Shown piece after piece: positions 2,923-58,640 of a DNA stretch of 64,000 nt (position 1 is its first letter; every line of letters starts with the position of its first letter). Position numbers and translations under genes: made by a program. Under the pieces are notes generated by a model that saw only the letters and a program-made list of their open reading frames with translations, was not told the DNA's origin and did no database searches. Origin of the DNA: the human T2T-CHM13v2.0 reference genome, Homo sapiens; NCBI RefSeq assembly GCF_009914755.1, contig NC_060939.1. One strand, written 5' to 3'.

Positions 2923-3042
2923 ATCATTTGTGTTAACATGCCAAGCCATATCACCATAAGATACCAGTTGTCCATTAACGTAACACTGAATTTCATTGTT
3001 CCTCCATCGATTGTAAATGTGGACAATGCTGATCATGTACCA
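2923..3042 (-). pseudogene. NBEA unprocessed pseudogene exon (open, 120 nt)
   Basis: ag|...|gtaagt. Translates [40 protein letters not shown], matching the NBEA segment directly upstream of the 211-349 exon. Confidence 0.95.
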
Positions 3043-3719
3043 CTTACATAAAAAATTAAATATATCAATATGTAATGTTTGGTTATTACGGTCTAAAATG
3101 CAATTATAACATTCATAAAACCCTAGAAGAATATGCTGACAGAACTATTAATGATCATCTAATACCACTTCCTCAAGCTCCCCCTCCCATCCCTCATTTC
3201 ACAGATGGTAGAAGCGGCACATAAAGAATATTCATGGAGAAGACAAGAACTACAGCCTCTTGACCTCCAGAGTGATATTCTTTCCACTATACCAAGATTC
3301 AAAATTGTGGAAATACAATTTATTTATGTTCATTCATTTAAAATTTACATTGTGCTAGGCACTGCAGATACCCAAGGCTGACTAGTTCTCCTAGAAATTA
3401 TGAGCTATAAAAGAAATACATATGACACAATTAAACAAGTGTAGAATTATAAATCATGGTGATTACAGTGAGGAGAAAGAAAACAAAAACAGGAGAAGAA
3501 ACAAGAATACAAACATGAAATAGAAGCAGTAGCAAAAGAAAATGAAGAGGAACAAGAAAATGAGAAGAAAACACACAGCGGAAGAAAGGAAAAAGAACAG
3601 GTATGGGAATTAGAAGGCCTATAATACCTTTTATCCCCTTCTCGATTCATAAAATTTGAGTAACTCAAAGACTATCACAACAAAAAACAAGCAAAAGGAT
3701 ACACAAATAGTCATCCCCT

Positions 3720-5820
3720 AAATTTTGTTAAGAATGAGACAATGCTGCCACTCACGCCTAGCTCAGGCACCAGCAGGAGGGCACCCTCCAGAGATTGCAG
3801 GAGAAGGGGGAGAACTCTTCTTTGCCCTAGGTGTATCACCACCACTGCCACCGAAGCCTGTGTTACAGCACCCACAGGTTCCTCCCCACCCCAGAGTGGG
3901 ATGGGCCCTGCAGTGCTCCCATTCCCCCTTCCCGGCCCCCAGACTTCCTACTGCTACCACCACTAGCGCCAATGCCAATACAACCACTGTCGCCCTCAAT
4001 GTACCAGCCCACCCTACCAGCTCCTACCACCTGGCCCCCATGGGTGCCCTCCTCCCGCTCCGGTCGATGTGTGGTCTCCATCGCCACCACCAACCGCATG
4101 AGGCAAGCTGCAGAACCACGTCATCTGCAGGCTCGACCCTACCACAGGCGACTCCTCGCCTTCTCCTCCTTCAGCCTGGCTTGGAGTAGCTGGGCAGGCA
4201 AAGCCAGAAAAGCCCAAATCAGGATTCAGACAGTGGAACCGTTAGAGCCTCATCTTGTCACGCTGGTGACTGGGTGGCAGGCATCAGTTTCATTGAAGGC
4301 ACTCACATCCACCCTCCAAAGTCCAGCCTCTCCTTCTGGCAAAAGCTGGCCAGGAACTGGGGTCTGGGGTGGGAGTGAATGCCTTCACTGAAACCGGCCC
4401 CTGGCCAACTCCAGCTGACCAGGAATTGCTGGGCCCACCAGGGCTGCCCTCCTCAGGGAGCCCGAGTAGGAGAAACTCAGAACCAGCCAGCCCTCCCCAC
4501 CCAAGGGCTGGTTCCCATTCCTGACGCCTCCACCCACAGTGCCCTGTCCCCTGCTTCCCCCGTGGGTGCCTATTACTCCCTGCCCAGTAGTCCCAGGTGG
4601 TCTCCGCAACACAGAGCATGAGGGCGTGCCGGGAAACCACAGTGGGTGTGGGGGCCCTGCCGTGCAATCTAGCACGAGCAGGAGAAGATCGCCTTCTAGA
4701 GTCTGGAGTCCGGGAATAGAAGAACGATCCCTTACCTGGAGACCACCAGAAGGAAAGAGGCGGCCACTACTGTCGCTGCCGCTGCCGCCACCTCAGCTCG
4801 CCAACACCGCTGGCAGTGTAGCCCCCACAGCACCCCTAATCTGACCCCTGCCACTAGCAGTGTAGCCCCCGGATAGCACATCCAACACACCCTAGTTTCA
4901 GGCAATGTAACCCCAATACCTCCCCCAAAGCACTCCCCCCACACTGCAGGGAGTGTACCACCCAACAGTGCCCCAAATCTGACCCAGCCACGGGAGTTGC
5001 TGCACTAGATACCATCCCAAACCCACCTCCTCCCACCCCGCCACGGACAGTTCAGCTCTTGATGGCGCACCACCCCGAGTCAGCACCCAACAACGCCCCA
5101 GGCAGTGCAGCATCCAACAACGTCCCTAAACCACCCCCCACTGCCAGCATTGTAGCCCTGGATAACTCCACCCAACCCACCCCCTGCCGCTGGCAGTGCA
5201 GCAGAAGATAGCGCCCCTAATCCTTCCCCAGCCACCGGCAGTATACGCTAGTGTACACAATCTGCTTTCCCCGACCACCCCTGCCACCGCAGGCAGTATA
5301 GCCCCAGATAGCCAGCCAACCTGCCCCACCACCAGCAATGCCACCCCGGAGAGTGCCCCCAACCAGACCACTGCCACAGGCAGGGTAGCCTCTAGCAGTG
5401 AGCCCCAGTAGGACACCCAACCCTTGCCCCCAGAGGCGTGCAGGGCAGCCCCGGGAAACTCACCTACCCCATCACATTTCTACCACTGTGGCCGAGCTGC
5501 AGTCTCCGACGTCACCACCAACCACAGCGAGGCGAACCAACCAGAGCGAGGCCAGCCACGGTGGCACAGGCTCCAGCCTCCAGCATGTGGCAGTGCCTCT
5601 TCCTTCTCCTAGTCCTCCAGCCCAGCAGGAGAAGCTCCCGCTGCCGGGCGCTCTCCTACTGCTCTGTCGCCACCACCAACCACAGCGAAACAGTGTCCCA
5701 CGCTCCAGGGCTCCAGGCTCCATCCATCCTCCAGCTTCAAGCAGGAGAAAGGTTGCGGCCTCTTCCAGTTCTCTAAGCCGGTCACGGGATAGCTCTTCCT
5801 CTAGACACAGAAGAGCTTGA
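3720..5820 (-). other. GC-rich (CpG-island-like) 5' module with minus-strand splice donors
   Basis: Abrupt GC rise. Minus-strand donors AG|GTGAGT (exon end 5464), CAG|GTAAGG (exon end 4736) and GC|GTGAGT (exon end 3756). Lies just downstream of the leftward TATA box. Confidence 0.6.
4805..5420. repeat. Degenerate GC-rich minisatellite, period about 40-45 bp
   Basis: recurring unit ~cccctgccactggcagtgtagccccggatagcaccccaac, roughly a dozen diverged copies. Confidence 0.75.
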
Positions 5821-5837
5821 AATGACCTGATACGACC

Positions 5838-6101
5838 TCAGCATGCTTTATATACCGAGGTTATGCAAATGCATTTCCTGGACTACATGTTCTGATTGGA
5901 TGAGAGAAAAAAACCTCTAGGCCTACTCTGATTGGACTTTGTTTTCATGCTGTGATTGGTTGTGTTAAGACTTGCTCTCAACCAATCAGAACATGATAAT
6001 AAAGTCCAATCAGAGTAAGCCTGGAGGTTTTTTCTCATCCAATCAAAACATGCAGTCCAGGAACCTCCGTGGGCATAACCGCAGTATATAAATGATGCTG
6101 A
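5838..6101. promoter_or_regulatory. Palindromic bidirectional Pol II promoter (TATA + 3xCCAAT per arm; octamer on left arm)
   Basis: Arms 5838-5962 and 5979-6101 are reverse complements, with a 16-bp spacer. TATATAAA at 5847-5854 (-) and 6085-6092 (+). ATTGG at 5895, 5931, 5955; CCAAT at 5982, 6006, 6039. ATGCAAAT at 5863-5870. Confidence 0.8.
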
Positions 6102-6170
6102 AGACAGGTCAGGTTTATTCAGGTTCCTGTATTTTCCTGTCGAGTTGCTAGCTGCCCGTCGTAGAGGACT

Positions 6171-6950
6171 AAAAAAAATTAATGAAAATTGCTAAATCAA
6201 TGACGCTTTCAGAAGTTCCCTGTTTTTGACATCAGAGTCATATTATAATGCTCTATTTTCTGTTTCCTCACCTAAACAGAATTTTGCTTCAGGCAATTTT
6301 TTATCTGAACTTCTGTTTGTAGAAACCAGGGACATTTATTGAATTGTTTCTGGCTGGCTATTTGATCTTAACAAAGCATTTAAATGATACTGATGCCCTG
6401 GCTTGAGCAACGGAGCATCCCAGACTTTCAGTTAGTTGCACATAGCACACATACAATTCATTTGAGTTACAGCTAAATGCAATTACAGGCCTCAGAGCTA
6501 ATATATAGATCACTTTTTATTTAAGGCAATTCACCTTTGAATTGGTTAACCTTTAATTGTTTATAAAATAATAAGATGGGAAACAAAGTTGCTACCCAAT
6601 ATGTTAGTTTCCCCAAATAAACACTTATTTAAAGGTTCATTTGTTAATCAAGTATCTGGAAGTTGAAATACATTTTTATGAAAGGAAATAAATTTTAGGT
6701 GATGATTAGGTTTTTATCAAGAGCTGAAGTTTTTAATAATGAACAGGGAGAGATACTATGGCAAAACAGTAATTGAATAAAACATAAATTCAATAAAATG
6801 ATATGAAAAATCAATGACATTTATCCTGAGTCAAATATAAAGAGAATTAAATTGAGGATGATAAAATGTTTCTAATCATTGTTCCACCAGTATTTGACCT
6901 TGAGCAAACTGCCTGGGGGCCATATTTGGTAGACAGATGAGGATGTACAC
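6171..6950 (+). repeat. Copy A of locally duplicated segment
   Basis: 6171-6824 is the reverse complement of 8156-8812; 6735-6950 is directly repeated at 7894-8113. Confidence 0.95.
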
Positions 6951-7179
6951 TTTCTTTTAAATACTTGAGAATTAGCTTAAGTGCTATCATTTGATAACTT
7001 GCTCGGTATTTCATAAATGCCAGGAAATTAACTCAAATCCTTTGATGAGCTGCATTTTCTGTATTCAATTTGTGTAAGTTCAACAAATATTTATTGAGGG
7101 TCTTCCATATGCTGGGTATGTGTCTTCGCAAAATAAAGTACATTATGAAAGATGTGATGCTCAATAGTATATCATCAGT

Positions 7180-7860
7180 GAATTGCAAATTAAAATCTAA
7201 ATGAGATATCACTATATATCCACTGGATTGTCTAATATTTTAAAGTTGTCAGTATTAAATATTGGGAAAAATGTGGAGCAGCTGGAACACTCATACATTG
7301 CCAGTGGGAGATTAAAATGGTGCAGCACTTTGTAAAGCTAAACATATATTTACTATACTACCCAATAATACCACTAAGTATTTACCAAGAGAAAACAATT
7401 GTCTACACAAAGACTTGTACATGAATGTTCACCGTAGCTTTATTCATCATAGCTAAAAACTGGAAACAACTCAAAAACAGAAAAGTAAATTGATGAGCAA
7501 ATTGTGGTATATCAATTTAATGGGATACCATCCAACAATGAAATAAATAATGAACGATAACACTGATTGACATCAATAATCTCAAAATCATTATCCTATG
7601 TTAATGAAGCCAGACACAAATAAGTATTTTGTATATTATTTTATTTGCATAAAAATTTATAACAGGAAAATCTAATCTATAATGGCAAAAAGTAGATTCA
7701 TGGTTGTCTGAGCTAAGGGGTAGAGGAAGATTGATGGACTGCAAAATGCAAAAGGGAACTCCTTGAGGGTGATGGAAATAGTCTATATCCTGATTAGCAA
7801 GGTGGTTACATGCATGTATACCTTTCTCAAAACTCATAGAACATACACTTAAAATGTGCA
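7180..7860 (+). mobile_element. Old L1 (L1M-type) 3' fragment
   Basis: gaattgcaaattaaaa...atgtggagcagctggaacactc...aaaactggaaacaac...gagggtgatggaaat L1M 3' motifs. Confidence 0.75.
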
Positions 7861-7893
7861 GTGCTGGCTGGGTGCAGTGATATGGCTCATACC

Positions 7894-8113
7894 AATAATG
7901 AACAGGGAGAGATACTATGGCAAAACAGTAATTGAATAAAACATAAATTCAATAAAATGATATGAAAAATCAATGTTTGACATTTATCCTGAGTCAAATA
8001 TAAAGAGAATTAAATTGAGGATGATAAAATGTTTCTAATTATTGTTCCACCAGTATGTGACCTTGAGCAAACTGCCTGGGGGCCATATTTGGTAGACAGA
8101 TGAGGATGTACAC
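7894..8113 (+). repeat. Copy B: 220-bp templated direct duplication of 6735-6950
   Basis: near-identical sequence, bracketed by a repeated 20-mer cagtg(a/g)tatggctcatacca (7875-7894, 8113-8132). Confidence 0.95.
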
Positions 8114-8155
8114 AGTGGTATGGCTCATACCACTGCACCCAGCCAGCACTGCACA

Positions 8156-8812
8156 ATAAATGTCAAACATTGATTTTTCATATCATTTTATTGAATTTAT
8201 GTTTTATTCAATTACTGTTTTGCCATAGTATCTCTCCCTGTTCGTTATTAAAAACTTCAGCTCTTGATAAAAACCTAATCATCACCTAAAATTTATTTCC
8301 TTTCATAAAAATGTATTTCAACTTCCAGATACTTGATTAACAAATGAACCTTTAAATAAGTGTTTTTTTGGGGAAACTAACATATTGGGTAGCAACTTTG
8401 TTTCCCATCTTATTATTTTATGAACAATTAAAGGTTAACCAATTCAAAGGTGAATTGCCTTAAATAAGAAGTGATCTATATATTAGCTCTGAGGCCTGTA
8501 ATTGCATTTAGCTGTAACTCAAATGAATTGTATGTGTGCTATGTGCAACTAACTGAAAGTCTGGGATGCTCCGTTGCTCAAGCCAGGGCATCAGTATCAT
8601 TTAAATGCTTTGTTACGATCAAATAGCCAGCCAGAAACAATTCAATAAATGTCCCTGGTTTCTACAAACAGAAGTTCAGATAAAAAATTGCCTGAAGCAA
8701 AATTCTGTTTAGGTGAGGAAACAGGAAATAGAGCATTATAATATGACTCTGATGTCAAAAACAGGGAACTTCTGAAAGCGTCATTGATTTAGCAATTTTC
8801 ATTAATTCTTTT
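8156..8812 (-). repeat. Copy C: ~655-bp inverted duplication of 6171-6824
   Basis: direct reverse-complement comparison shows only scattered mismatches. Confidence 0.95.
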
Positions 8813-9819
8813 AACCAAAAAAACTGCTCTTTTGTAGTCCTTTTTAAAAGAGAAAAAAAGGGAAAAATGCCTTACTTAGCCCTTGGCACACATTTTATTA
8901 TTCATTTCTAACATGGCATGTCACATTGACAACTCGTTTTAAGTTTGAATTTTTCTTACTAAGTAATCATTTTGTATATGTTATTTTTTCATTGAATTAC
9001 AGTGTATGAGAAGCAGTCTCTCAAATCACCACATAGAATATGTGACAATCAGTTTAGTTTGTAGTCAATGTTCATTATTCCTCTATGTTTCTTTATTTTG
9101 GTAGTTTAGTCATAGTTCTTAACAACTGCCTTGAAATTTAGAGATAAAAATAATGTCTAATTTTAGTATCTTTAGTCACAAAAATAGCTGTGGAACAAAC
9201 TATAGACTAGGAAGACAGAAGGATGAGTCTTCAGATATCCTATTTCATATTAGTTGAAGAAGATTTCTTAAAACATTCCTGTTTCTCCCTACATTTATTC
9301 AGGAATTGGTTGAGGGAAAAGGAGAGTAGAGAGAAATTCAACAGATACTTAATTTCTGGTTGGTGCTTTGCCTATATATTACCGTGCTGTTGCATTACTG
9401 ACACTTATCACAGTGTGGGTTGCTAGTTATTAAATGTAATGGAATAACCTGATTTATTGTTTATAACACGCATAATTTAGAAATGTTGAAGATAAAGCTC
9501 TTCAGTTTAAATTGATAAATTATCCAAGATTATATATTAATAATATGTGCTTGATTAAGTCGGTGAACTCAGATTTGGGCAATTCTGAGGTTCATGCTCT
9601 GTCCAATACCATAGTAAAAATTTACAAAATATTTCATGAAAGGAGACATGTGACAATTGGGAAAGCCACAAGAATTTATGAGTTAATATTTATGAAGACC
9701 TCTGAAAATCCATAAGTATAATAGATTTTTATTTAGTATGTGTTTTTCAGAAGAAATAATTTTCAGGTATTTGCTTAGTTTTTGAATAGTTAAAATTAGG
9801 CTCTTAAAATTTATTTGGA

Positions 9820-38252: not shown

Positions 38253-39648
<1,396 letters not shown>

Positions 39649-40083
39649 GAATGCTGGAAAAGCACAAATGTAACGTTTTATGTGGTGGGACAGCCCTTTC
39701 AAAAGTGTTTTCCACTGCTTATACTGATGAAGGTAGAAAAAAATTTCACTTATTTTAACTCTTCCTTTAAAAACTTCTTTTTGGTGGCTCATGTCATGCA
39801 TACTCCACAAGTCCTGGAAGTTAAATGCTCTTAAATATTTGATGGTCTGGTCTTAGCAAAACGGCAGGTTTTTACTTTTACATTTTTAGCTATGTTTTAA
39901 ATTATTTGTAATCCAGACACTGAAGTTTTATTTTGTTGTGAATTGAATCTGGGCAGAGTGTACAAGGGATCTCTCTGTATTATTTTTACAACTACATGTG
40001 AATCTATAATTATCTCATCAAAAATTCACTGAAAAAGGTATCACGGAGCCCATGTTTGCTGTTACCGTCTTTGCTCCTCCCAG

Positions 40084-57123: not shown

Positions 57124-58122
<999 letters not shown>

Positions 58123-58640
58123 AAGAGTATGTTTTTTGTCACCATGAAAGTATCTTAAGAGACAGTAAAGGGATATGTGAAAGGTTGATCTAAAATTCAT
58201 GACCTCTTCCACAAAAATAGTTTCTGTGCACATAAGATGAAGGAACAATCTAACTACGGAAAACGTAACTGTTGATTTTATAATGCTATAACTTATTTAC
58301 ACGTATAAATAAATATGCAGGAGTTTAAACAGTTAGTCCACAAATATTGATAGCTTACTCTGTACCAGGCAATGTATTAACTGCTAGGGAGTAAGGGAGA
58401 GAACAGCCACCAGTCCCTATTTCTGCAGAACTTTCAATCTGTCTCTTGAAGTATGATGTCAAACACTAGGCATGTGGCCTCAAGCAAGTCACAACAGTCC
58501 TGATTAAATGATGATCTCAAATCCTTGTGATGATCTAAGAAGATATATGTGAAAGTAGCTTATAAATCATGTTACCTAAAGTAAAAAGAGATATGTAGCC
58601 ATTTGTGCAAAGCACTGTTTATAGCAATCATCTTCAATAG

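What the first reader, a model, noticed from the sequence alone, without database searches (positions are those of the whole stretch)
5768..6170. Palindromic, mirror-image bidirectional promoter with histone-H2B-like architecture
Seen: arms 5838-5962 and 5979-6101 are reverse complements around a 16-bp spacer, and weaker symmetry continues to about 5768 and 6170. Each arm has an outward-facing TATATAAA and three CCAAT boxes. All six CCAAT boxes and both TATA boxes are intact although intervening bases differ between the arms. The left arm also has an octamer (ATGCAAAT) 8 bp upstream of its TATA. Known: TATA + adjacent octamer + CCAAT is the Oct-1/NF-Y layout of H2B promoters. Inference: an old fold-back duplication made a symmetric, two-way promoter cassette whose motifs were maintained. 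The rightward unit is cut at 6170, exactly where the duplicated segment begins. No histone ORF follows either TATA.
Basis: partly seen in the sequence, partly recalled or inferred. Interest (0 to 1): 0.8.

Follow-up and report, generated by a model that had tools for sequence, protein, structure and literature searches.

The report
Truncated REP522 repeat with palindromic promoter
The mirror-image TATA/CCAAT cassette is real, but it is the conserved core of a known low-copy human repeat (REP522) that is already reported to carry cancer-activated promoters, so this locus is one truncated copy and not a new invention.

Summary
In detail: arms 5813-5962 and 5979-6126 are reverse complements around a 16-bp spacer. 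They carry six CCAAT boxes, two outward TATATAAA boxes and one octamer.

The palindrome is not local. The T2T assembly holds at least 40 places with the same segment, and the palindrome was present in all 19 other copies checked. Left arms resemble other copies' left arms more than their own right arm, so the fold-back predates the family.

The published miR-5701 19-mer (PMC3184096, Table 4) lies at the homologous position, with 2 mismatches here. Its only two exact sites are diverged family members on chr15. A preprint places miR-5701 in the 'Rep522 repeat'. [quoted passage not shown]

The window copy (3472-6170) is cut at both ends. Across 38 copies the 190-bp core changes about 4-fold less than its flanks, and the CCAAT boxes change least.

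The H2B-like layout holds for the left arm only. No histone ORF and no sequence homology were found.

Verdict: a known repeat and a plausible latent two-way NF-Y promoter. Interest is low to moderate.

The parts
3472..6170 (.). Copy of the REP522-family unit, cut at both ends. The left about 90 bp (plus a further 2 kb in some subfamilies), about 125 bp of the right arm, and the right-hand GC-rich repeats are all missing.
   Evidence: homology to paralogues runs 3472-6171. In other copies the sequences beyond both ends are homologous to each other but not to the window.
4800..5770 (.). GC-rich zone (62% GC, CpG o/e 0.39) made of degenerate units of about 150 bp.
   Evidence: (families D1, D2, D4 with spacings 142-178). 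Tandem Repeats Finder does not score it as an array.
5813..6126 (.). The palindrome: left arm 5813-5962, spacer 5963-5978, right arm 5979-6126.
   Evidence: I1-I3. One search gives a self-reverse match 5825-6114 at 79%.
5875..6062 (.). Slow-evolving core of the palindrome. It contains no CpG and holds all six CCAAT boxes.
   Evidence: 1.20 changes per column against 4.2-4.75 in the flanks. Transversions alone give 0.42 against 1.9-2.2. One search shows the same direction in each of 4 subfamilies.
5895..5899 (-). CCAAT box L1 (ATTGG on the + strand), 45 bp upstream of the left TATA.
   Evidence: Intact in 36 of 38 copies.
5931..5935 (-). CCAAT box L2.
   Evidence: Intact in 37 of 38 copies.
5955..5959 (-). 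CCAAT box L3.
   Evidence: Intact in 29 of 38 copies.
5982..5986 (+). CCAAT box R3.
   Evidence: Intact in 32 of 38 copies.
6006..6010 (+). CCAAT box R2.
   Evidence: Intact in 37 of 38 copies.
6039..6043 (+). CCAAT box R1, 46 bp upstream of the right TATA.
   Evidence: Intact in 36 of 38 copies.
5847..5854 (-). Left TATA box (TATATAAA on the - strand), pointing left.
   Evidence: A TATAWA is present in the left arm of 21 of 38 copies.
6085..6092 (+). Right TATA box, pointing right.
   Evidence: A TATAWA is present in the right arm of 27 of 38 copies.
5863..5870 (-). Octamer ATTTGCAT (read on the - strand), 8 bp upstream of the left TATA.
   Evidence: Intact in the left arm of 14 of 38 copies.
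6069..6076 (+). Decayed mirror octamer (GTGGGCAT here). Five other copies have ATTTGCAT at these columns.
   Evidence: Alignment and counts (right arm, 5 of 38).
5984..6002 (-). Position homologous to mature hsa-miR-5701, with 2 mismatches. It overlaps CCAAT box R3.
6060..6107 (+). Exon 1 of the predicted lncRNA LOC124900633. It lies inside the right arm and is followed by GT at 6108-6109.
   Evidence: Hub gene table. The model starts 25 bp upstream of the TATA, so it is not evidence for a TATA-directed start.
6171..6172 (.). Right breakpoint of the repeat copy. The unrelated AT-rich inverted duplication 6172-6816/8168-8812 begins here.
   Evidence: The breakpoint is shared only with the 99% copy at chr15:19.98 Mb (L002).

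Best explanation
Window 3472-6170 is a truncated copy of REP522, the low-copy repeat spread by segmental duplication. Its palindrome is the family's ancestral core. The core consists of two mirror-image promoter halves. Each half has three CCAAT boxes in forward orientation, about 45, 80 and 105 bp upstream of an outward-facing TATA box. Ancestrally, an octamer probably sat 8 bp upstream of each TATA.

The most likely mechanism is as follows. NF-Y loads on the six closely spaced high-quality CCAATCAG-type sites and opens the core. TBP, and where the octamer survives an Oct factor, set divergent starts about 30 bp outside each TATA. The GC-rich flanks are methylated and heterochromatic in normal somatic cells, so the module is latent. 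It fires when methylation is lost, as in tumours and early embryos. RNA that reads across the core folds into a long hairpin, and the small RNA called miR-5701 is a by-product of that hairpin at two paralogues.

Shown here: the anatomy, family membership, the ancestry of the palindrome, and slower change of the core and its CCAAT boxes. Taken from print at family level: CAGE promoter activity in cancer, RNA increase at the 8-cell stage, and H3K9me3. Inferred: NF-Y/Oct/TBP binding, the start sites, and any activity of this particular copy.
For: Family: 40 places in T2T, 74-100% identical over 5768-6170. The central palindrome is present in 19 of 19 other copies checked.

Ancestral fold-back: mean identity between left arms of different copies is 0.854. 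A copy's own left and right arms average 0.797, and left versus right arms of other copies average 0.793. Subfamily clusters recur in both arm clades.

Identity as REP522:
- The miR-5701-5p 19-mer printed in PMC3184096 Table 4 matches window 5984-6002(-) with 2 mismatches.
- Its only 2 exact sites in the assembly are family members, 77% identical over 5842-6099.
- bioRxiv 10.1101/2021.12.09.471935 states that miR-5701 overlaps the Rep522 repeat (passage).

Constraint: core 1.20 changes per column against 4.2-4.75 in the flanks, and transversions 0.42 against 1.9-2.2. CCAAT columns score 0.63 against 1.31 for the rest of the core; 45 of 10000 random placements score as low. The core is 2.4-4.7 times slower than the flanks in each of 4 subfamilies. 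All six CCAAT boxes are intact in 24 of 38 copies, and five or more in 34 of 38.

Expression context from print (passages only):
- REP522 RNA rises at the 8-cell stage (PMC6545021).
- The REP522-rich BAGE locus is H3K9me3-covered in liver and active in Tc1 mouse (PMC3560060).
- REP522 is linked to cancer-specific lncRNAs (PMC6925957 citing Horie 2017).
- miR-5701 expression rose after MBD1 or HDAC3 knock-down (PMC9365560).

This copy: the predicted lncRNA exon 1 at 6060-6107 lies in the right arm (hub table).
Against: - No direct comparison with the Repbase/Dfam REP522 consensus was possible. The name rests on the miR-5701 link and a verbal description.
- No CAGE, ChIP or methylation data could be consulted for this locus or any copy.
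- TATA boxes are kept on both sides in only 16 of 38 copies. The octamer is kept in 14 of 38 (left) and 5 of 38 (right). A whole subfamily (chr18/chr21/acrocentric, L034-L040) lacks both TATAs. TATA/Oct cannot therefore be essential to whatever keeps the core.
- In the subfamily that contains the window copy, the CCAAT columns are not slower than the rest of the core (0.20 against 0.18).
- The whole 190-bp core is slow, not just the motifs. A structural cause tied to the hairpin, or a low local mutation rate, is not excluded.
- The lncRNA model starts upstream of the TATA and is only predicted.
- This copy has lost part of its right arm and its right flank.
Confidence: 0.8

Rival explanations
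1. One reading: a local, old fold-back duplication at this chr15 site created a novel H2B-type (Oct-1/NF-Y/TBP) two-way promoter, and its motifs were then maintained here.
For: In the left arm, TATA, an 8-bp gap, the octamer, a 24-bp gap and CCAAT match the spacing seen in one real H2B promoter. That promoter is L046: TATA, 8 bp, octamer, 25 bp, CCAAT. All six CCAAT boxes and both TATAs are intact here.
Against: The same palindrome is present in 19 of 19 other copies, and arms group by side rather than by copy. The fold-back therefore predates this locus. The element is a known repeat. No histone ORF was found. The best match to 3 H2A-H2B promoters is a 10-mer at E = 0.15, and only 1 of those 3 sampled promoters has a perfect octamer.
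Confidence: 0.03
2. The palindrome is chiefly a microRNA gene, a mir-5701 paralogue whose hairpin is the functional product. On this view the promoter-like motifs are incidental.
For: The core folds into a very stable hairpin. The mature miR-5701 maps to the homologous arm position. Several papers report effects of miR-5701 mimics (search listing; passages).
Against: The window copy has 2 mismatches in the 19-mer, and no MIR5701 gene is listed in this window's table. The discovery rested on 2 reads. [quoted passage not shown] The mature sequence ends in the CCAAT-box complement. Rfam gives only below-threshold generic hairpin hits.
Confidence: 0.04
3. The palindrome is an inert relic. The core is slow-evolving for non-selective reasons, such as AT-rich CpG-free composition or hairpin-related repair. 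The motifs do nothing at most copies, including this one, and reported REP522 transcription is read-through or opportunistic.
For: The whole core, not only the motifs, is conserved. The core contains 0 CpG. The TATA and octamer decay freely. CCAAT columns are no slower than the rest of the core in the window's own subfamily. The region is pericentromeric duplicated DNA.
Against: Transversions show the same 4-5-fold deficit as all changes, so CpG decay is not the cause. There is no sign of arm-to-arm correction (0.797 against 0.793). CCAAT columns are the slowest in 3 of 4 subfamilies and overall. CAGE promoters are reported to be enriched on REP522.
Confidence: 0.12
4. The core descends from a real H2A-H2B intergenic histone promoter that was captured, made palindromic and then spread.
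For: The same motif set and nearly the same spacings occur in L046. Three copies (L026, L030, L033) keep ATTTGCAT next to the TATA on both arms.
Against: No alignable sequence exists outside the motifs. No histone-like ORF is found in the window copy or in a full copy (0 of 17 ORFs with any Pfam family). CCAAT + TATA + octamer also occurs in other promoter classes (recalled).
Confidence: 0.03

Closest known systems
REP522 (RepeatMasker/Repbase entry; listed as 'Satellite/telo' in PMC4240582; 'unclassified interspersed repeat' in PMC4896275)
   Same: - It is largely palindromic and multi-copy, and lies in pericentromeric, acrocentric and chr22 duplicated regions.
- It holds the miR-5701 hairpin.
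- It has GC-rich degenerate repeats on both sides of the palindrome.
   Different: Nothing differs at the family level. This copy is cut at 3472 and at 6170, so only about 200 bp of the right half remain. The family unit seen here (about 3.2 kb, or about 5.2 kb in a chr22/chr10/chr17 group) is longer than the 1.8 kb quoted for the consensus.
Divergent histone H2A-H2B gene-pair promoters
   Same: Both have two outward TATA boxes with several CCAAT boxes between them. Both have an octamer 8 bp from the H2B-side TATA and a CCAAT 24-25 bp further in (L046).
   Different: There are no histone genes on either side. Real spacers are not palindromic, and no sequence homology exists beyond the motifs. 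The octamer and TATA are poorly kept in the family.
MIR5701-1/-2 loci at 15q11.2
   Same: They sit at the same palindrome position and fold into the same hairpin. They lie about 250 kb and 1.1 Mb from the window on the same chromosome.
   Different: The window copy has 2 mismatches in the mature 19-mer. It belongs to another subfamily, 77% identical over the palindrome.
NF-Y-rich repeat promoters such as LTR12 (recalled; the abstract of PMC3730095, seen in the listing, reports NF-Y on repetitive elements)
   Same: Both are clusters of good CCAAT sites in a repeat that becomes a promoter when epigenetic silencing is lost.
   Different: REP522 is not an LTR. It has no terminal structure of a retroelement and no coding relic, and it is mirror-symmetric.

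Membership tests
REP522 repeat | Contains the sequence annotated as hsa-mir-5701 (statement in bioRxiv 10.1101/2021.12.09.471935) | tested here: met
   Both exact sites of the published 19-mer lie in diverged members of the same palindrome family. The window carries the homologous 19-mer with 2 mismatches.
REP522 repeat | About 1.8 kb, largely palindromic, interspersed (PMC4896275) | tested here: met
   The family has 40 places on 13 chromosomes. In full copies the palindrome is 420-655 bp, with GC-rich units in inverted orientation further out. The window copy is truncated.
REP522 repeat | Significant alignment to the Repbase/Dfam REP522 consensus or HMM | not testable with these tools
   No Dfam or Repbase library is on hand.
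Histone H2A-H2B bidirectional promoter | Flanked by divergent H2A and H2B coding sequences | tested here: not met
   No histone-like ORF was found. Pfam gave 0 families for 17 ORFs from the window copy and a full copy.
Histone H2A-H2B bidirectional promoter | TATA, adjacent octamer and CCAAT boxes on the H2B side | tested here: met
   The left arm has TATA 5847-5854, octamer 5863-5870 and CCAAT at 5895. L046 has the same order and spacing. The right arm has lost the octamer.
Histone H2A-H2B bidirectional promoter | Sequence homology to real spacers | tested here: not met
   blastn-short against 3 spacers (L046-L048) gave a best hit of 10 nt at E = 0.15.
mir-5701 microRNA gene | Exact mature sequence within a hairpin | tested here: not met
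   The hairpin is present, but the 19-mer has 2 mismatches. No MIR5701 gene appears in the window's gene table.
NF-Y-dependent promoter | CCAAT boxes with favourable flanks about 60-130 bp upstream of the start | tested here: met
   There are six CCAAT boxes, four of them as CCAATCAG. They lie 45-105 bp upstream of the TATA boxes. The NF-Y flank preference is recalled knowledge.
NF-Y-dependent promoter | NF-Y occupancy and CCAAT-dependent transcription | not testable with these tools
DNA-transposon terminal inverted repeat / repeat terminus | Inverted repeats at the two ends of the unit | tested here: not met
   The palindrome is internal: about 2.7 kb from the left end and 0.5 kb from the right end of the 3.2-kb shared unit.

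The most novel reading that the evidence does not exclude
The 190-bp REP522 core is kept by purifying selection in at least four subfamilies. It acts as a portable, NF-Y-loaded, two-way promoter module, possibly of histone-spacer ancestry. The module seeds lncRNA and small-RNA genes wherever segmental duplication drops it, and it fires at embryonic genome activation and in tumours. On this reading miR-5701 is simply the CCAAT-box strand of its hairpin.
Probability: 0.25. Interest if true: 0.55.

Novelty: already known. Interest (0 to 1): 0.3.

Why it matters
As an object, this is one more truncated copy of a catalogued repeat, so the locus itself is ordinary.

The session adds three points at family level:
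1. An explicit motif map of the REP522 core: six mirrored CCAAT boxes, two TATA boxes and relic octamers.
2. Evidence that this core, and the CCAAT boxes most of all, changes several-fold more slowly than its flanks in 38 copies.
3. The observation that the annotated microRNA miR-5701 is cut from the CCAAT-bearing arm of that hairpin.

If NF-Y binding is confirmed, it would give a simple mechanism for the reported activation of REP522 promoters in cancers and 8-cell embryos. It would also be a reason to treat miR-5701 results with caution.

I found no statement of this motif grammar in the searchable library. 'REP522' occurs in 14 papers, and none of the top-ranked papers in the combined search holds both REP522 and CCAAT or NF-Y. 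The two primary papers, Kaczkowski 2016 and Horie 2017, are not held, so they may already describe it.

Tried and rejected
- Rfam on 3000-9000 at E up to 1 gave only below-threshold hits to unrelated miRNA and leader families over 5905-6035. These are generic hairpin matches and were rejected.
- Pfam on 17 ORFs from the window copy and from a full chr17 copy gave 0 families. No transposase, reverse transcriptase or histone was found.
- Tandem Repeats Finder on 3400-6300 gave only two microsatellites. The periodicity of about 150 bp seen by the repeat finder is too degenerate to score.
- The terminal-inverted-repeat or 'repeat terminus' reading was rejected because the palindrome is internal to the unit.
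- I first read the sharp ends at 3472 and 6170 as family termini. This was rejected after one search showed that other copies continue in homology with each other beyond both points.
- Arm-to-arm gene conversion was tested as a cause of symmetry and not seen.
- Homology with three H2A-H2B spacers was tested and not found.
- Kaczkowski 2016 is not held.
- The preprint found under 'largely palindromic' concerns a cDNA artefact and is irrelevant.
Full report
**Observation**

One search finds three nested inverted-repeat pairs centred at 5970.5:
- 5908-5962/5979-6033 (55 nt, 89% complementary, 16-nt spacer)
- 5875-5910/6028-6063 (92%)
- 5813-5866/6073-6126 (74%)

One search places ATTGG at 5895, 5931 and 5955 and CCAAT at 5982, 6006 and 6039. 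TATATAAA lies at 6085-6092, its mirror at 5847-5854, and ATGCAAAT at 5863-5870, 8 bp from the left TATA. All four exact CCAATCAG octamers of the 64-kb window fall within 5892-6013, two per strand. The window-wide count of 4 is not itself above chance (2.9 expected), so the clustering is what matters. As RNA, 5875-6063 folds into one hairpin of -122.5 kcal/mol, z = -18.5.

**It is a family, and the palindrome is ancestral**

A search of the window's own assembly (T2T-CHM13) with 5768-6170 returned 80 matches. These are 40 places, each hit in both orientations, at 74-100% identity. They lie on chromosomes 2, 5, 7, 9, 10, 13, 14, 15, 17, 18, 20, 21 and 22. The tool states that such counts are lower bounds.

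All 19 other copies first fetched (L002-L020) carry the same central palindrome, 193-484 bp long with 71-84% arm identity. I aligned 38 copies: 36 of the 40 places plus the two MIR5701 loci.

When left arms and reverse-complemented right arms are put in one tree, left arms of the large subfamilies group with left arms and right with right. The same subfamily clusters recur on both sides.
- Mean identity between left arms of different copies: 0.854.
- A copy's own left versus right arm: 0.797.
- Left versus right arm of other copies: 0.793.

So the fold-back happened once, before the family spread. There is no sign of later arm-to-arm correction.

**Identity**

I recalled a Repbase entry, REP522, described as largely palindromic, and tested that lead.
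- A T2T microRNA preprint states that hsa-miR-5701 overlaps the 'Rep522 repeat' (passage).
- Table 4 of Watahiki et al. 2011 (PMC3184096; passage) prints miR-5701-5p, a 19-mer from 15q11.2 supported by 2 reads.
- That 19-mer matches the window at 5984-6002 on the minus strand with 2 mismatches. It is the only match in 64 kb at up to 3 mismatches.
- Its only two exact sites in the assembly are chr15:18,856,824 and chr15:19,727,907.
- Both sites sit at the homologous arm position of diverged members of the same palindrome family: 77% over 5842-6099, with six and five CCAAT boxes.

I could not align the window to the Dfam or Repbase consensus. The name therefore rests on these two links. I put it at about 0.9.

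**Anatomy of the unit and of this copy**

Copies on chr5, chr17 and chr10 share a unit of about 3.2 kb. A group on chr22, chr10, chr17 and chr2 shares about 2 kb more on the left, with a common boundary.

The palindrome centre lies about 2.7 kb from the left end and 0.5 kb from the right end of the shared unit. In full copies it spans about 420-655 bp. It is flanked on both sides by GC-rich degenerate units of about 150 bp.

The window copy runs only from 3472 to 6170. Beyond both points the other copies remain homologous to each other but not to the window. The right cut removes about 125 bp of the right arm and the whole right flank. It abuts a 99% inverted duplication, 6172-6816/8168-8812. 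Only the 99% twin at chr15:19.98 Mb shares these breakpoints.

No ORF in the window copy or in a full chr17 copy hits any Pfam family (0 of 17).

**Conservation**

Parsimony changes per alignment column on the 38-copy tree:

| Region | All changes per column | Transversions per column |
|---|---|---|
| Core 5875-6062 | 1.20 | 0.42 |
| TATA/octamer zones | 2.7-2.8 | 1.17-1.35 |
| Outer 60-70 bp flanks | 4.21 and 4.75 | 1.9-2.2 |

Because transversions show the same deficit, CpG decay does not explain it. The majority sequence of the core has no CpG at all.

The 30 CCAAT columns score 0.63 against 1.31 for the rest of the core. Only 45 of 10000 random placements of six 5-mers in the core score as low.

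Within each of four subfamilies, where alignment is unambiguous, the core is 2.4-4.7 times slower than the flanks. The CCAAT columns are slower than the rest of the core in three of the four. They are not slower in the subfamily that contains the window copy (0.20 against 0.18).

Motif retention across the 38 copies:
- Six of six CCAAT boxes intact: 24 copies. Five or more: 34 copies.
- TATAWA in the left arm: 21. In the right arm: 27. In both: 16.
- ATTTGCAT in the left arm: 14. In the right arm: 5.
- The full set of six CCAAT boxes plus two TATAs: 9 copies, including this one.

Three chr22 copies keep ATTTGCAT next to the TATA on both arms. This suggests the ancestor had it on both. The window's right arm reads GTGGGCAT at those columns. 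What is kept is therefore the CCAAT-rich core. TATA and octamer are dispensable in whole subfamilies.

**H2B comparison**

I located H2A genes with Pfam PF16211 and cut out three H2A-H2B spacers. One, L046, has TATA, 8 bp, octamer, 25 bp, CCAAT on its H2B side. It has three CCAAT boxes between the two TATA-like elements. The window's left arm has TATA, 8 bp, octamer, 24 bp, CCAAT. The other two spacers lack a perfect octamer. No alignment goes beyond the motifs; the best is 10 nt at E = 0.15.

The resemblance is one of layout. Membership as a histone promoter fails, because there are no histone genes and no sequence homology.

**Function**

At family level, print supports promoter activity and epigenetic silencing. 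I saw passages only, not whole papers.
- CAGE promoters on REP522 are activated in cancers.
- REP522 is tied to cancer-specific lncRNAs (PMC6925957 citing Horie 2017).
- REP522 RNA rises at the 8-cell stage (PMC6545021).
- A REP522-rich BAGE region is covered by H3K9me3 in human liver but transcribed in Tc1 mouse liver (PMC3560060).
- miR-5701 is de-repressed by MBD1 or HDAC3 knock-down (PMC9365560).

My reading is that the core is a latent two-way promoter. NF-Y would load on six closely spaced good sites, and TBP (and Oct factors where the sites survive) would fix outward starts. Methylation of the GC-rich flanks (CpG o/e 0.34-0.39 here) would keep it off.

Factor binding and start sites are inferred, not shown. 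For this copy the only hint of use is RefSeq's predicted lncRNA LOC124900633. Its first exon, 6060-6107, lies in the right arm and ends at a GT. It begins 25 bp upstream of the TATA, so it does not show TATA-directed initiation.

**Rivals**

- A microRNA gene as the main function is unlikely. The window has 2 mismatches in the mature sequence, the discovery rested on 2 reads, the stem is very long, and the mature sequence ends in the CCAAT complement.
- An inert relic with a structurally slow core cannot be excluded. I give it about 0.12.
- Histone-spacer ancestry is possible but unsupported beyond layout.
- A transposon terminus is excluded, because the palindrome is internal.

**Verdict**

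The object, however, is a truncated copy of a catalogued repeat whose promoter activity is already reported. The motif map, the constraint measurements and the link between miR-5701 and the CCAAT arm are modest additions. I could not find them in the searchable library. The two primary REP522 papers were not readable here.

Noticed in passing
window 6172-8812: This is a near-perfect inverted duplication: arms 6172-6816 and 8168-8812 are 99% complementary with a 1351-nt spacer. Inside it are direct repeats 6735-6950 and 7894-8113 (99-100%). It starts one base after the REP522 breakpoint and is AT-rich (32% GC). The chr15:19.98 Mb twin shares it at least as far as 7670.
   Followed up: partly
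L044 (chr15:18,855,324-18,858,342) and L045 (chr15:19,726,407-19,729,425): These hold the only two exact copies of the published miR-5701 19-mer in the assembly. Both lie in a diverged REP522 subfamily, about 250 kb and 1.1 Mb from the window. The mature sequence ends inside a CCAAT-box complement.
   Followed up: yes
L021 4037-6006, with L026, L029, L030, L033 and part of L025: A further 2 kb of AT-rich sequence (36% GC) to the left of the 3.2-kb unit is shared at 79-83% identity. Five copies on chr22 and chr10 share a common left boundary when compared with the chr17 copy, while the chr5, chr18 and acrocentric copies lack it. It may be a larger ancestral duplicon or a second element. Its ORFs have no Pfam family.
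   Followed up: partly
L034-L040 (chr18, chr21, chr15p, chr13p, chr22p): This acrocentric/chr18 subfamily has lost both TATA boxes (the left one by a short deletion) and both octamers. It keeps 5-6 of the 6 CCAAT boxes.
   Followed up: partly
window 5905-6035: Rfam gives below-threshold hits to unrelated plant and animal miRNA families and to the bacterial Phe leader. These are an example of generic long-hairpin false leads.
   Followed up: yes
window 38614-39659 and 57125-58126: These are two 94-97% similar segments of about 1 kb, partly direct and partly inverted relative to each other (D12, D16, D17, I2, I9). One lies inside the PAK2 pseudogene LOC646214. They are probably young L1 pieces. 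They were not examined.
   Followed up: no
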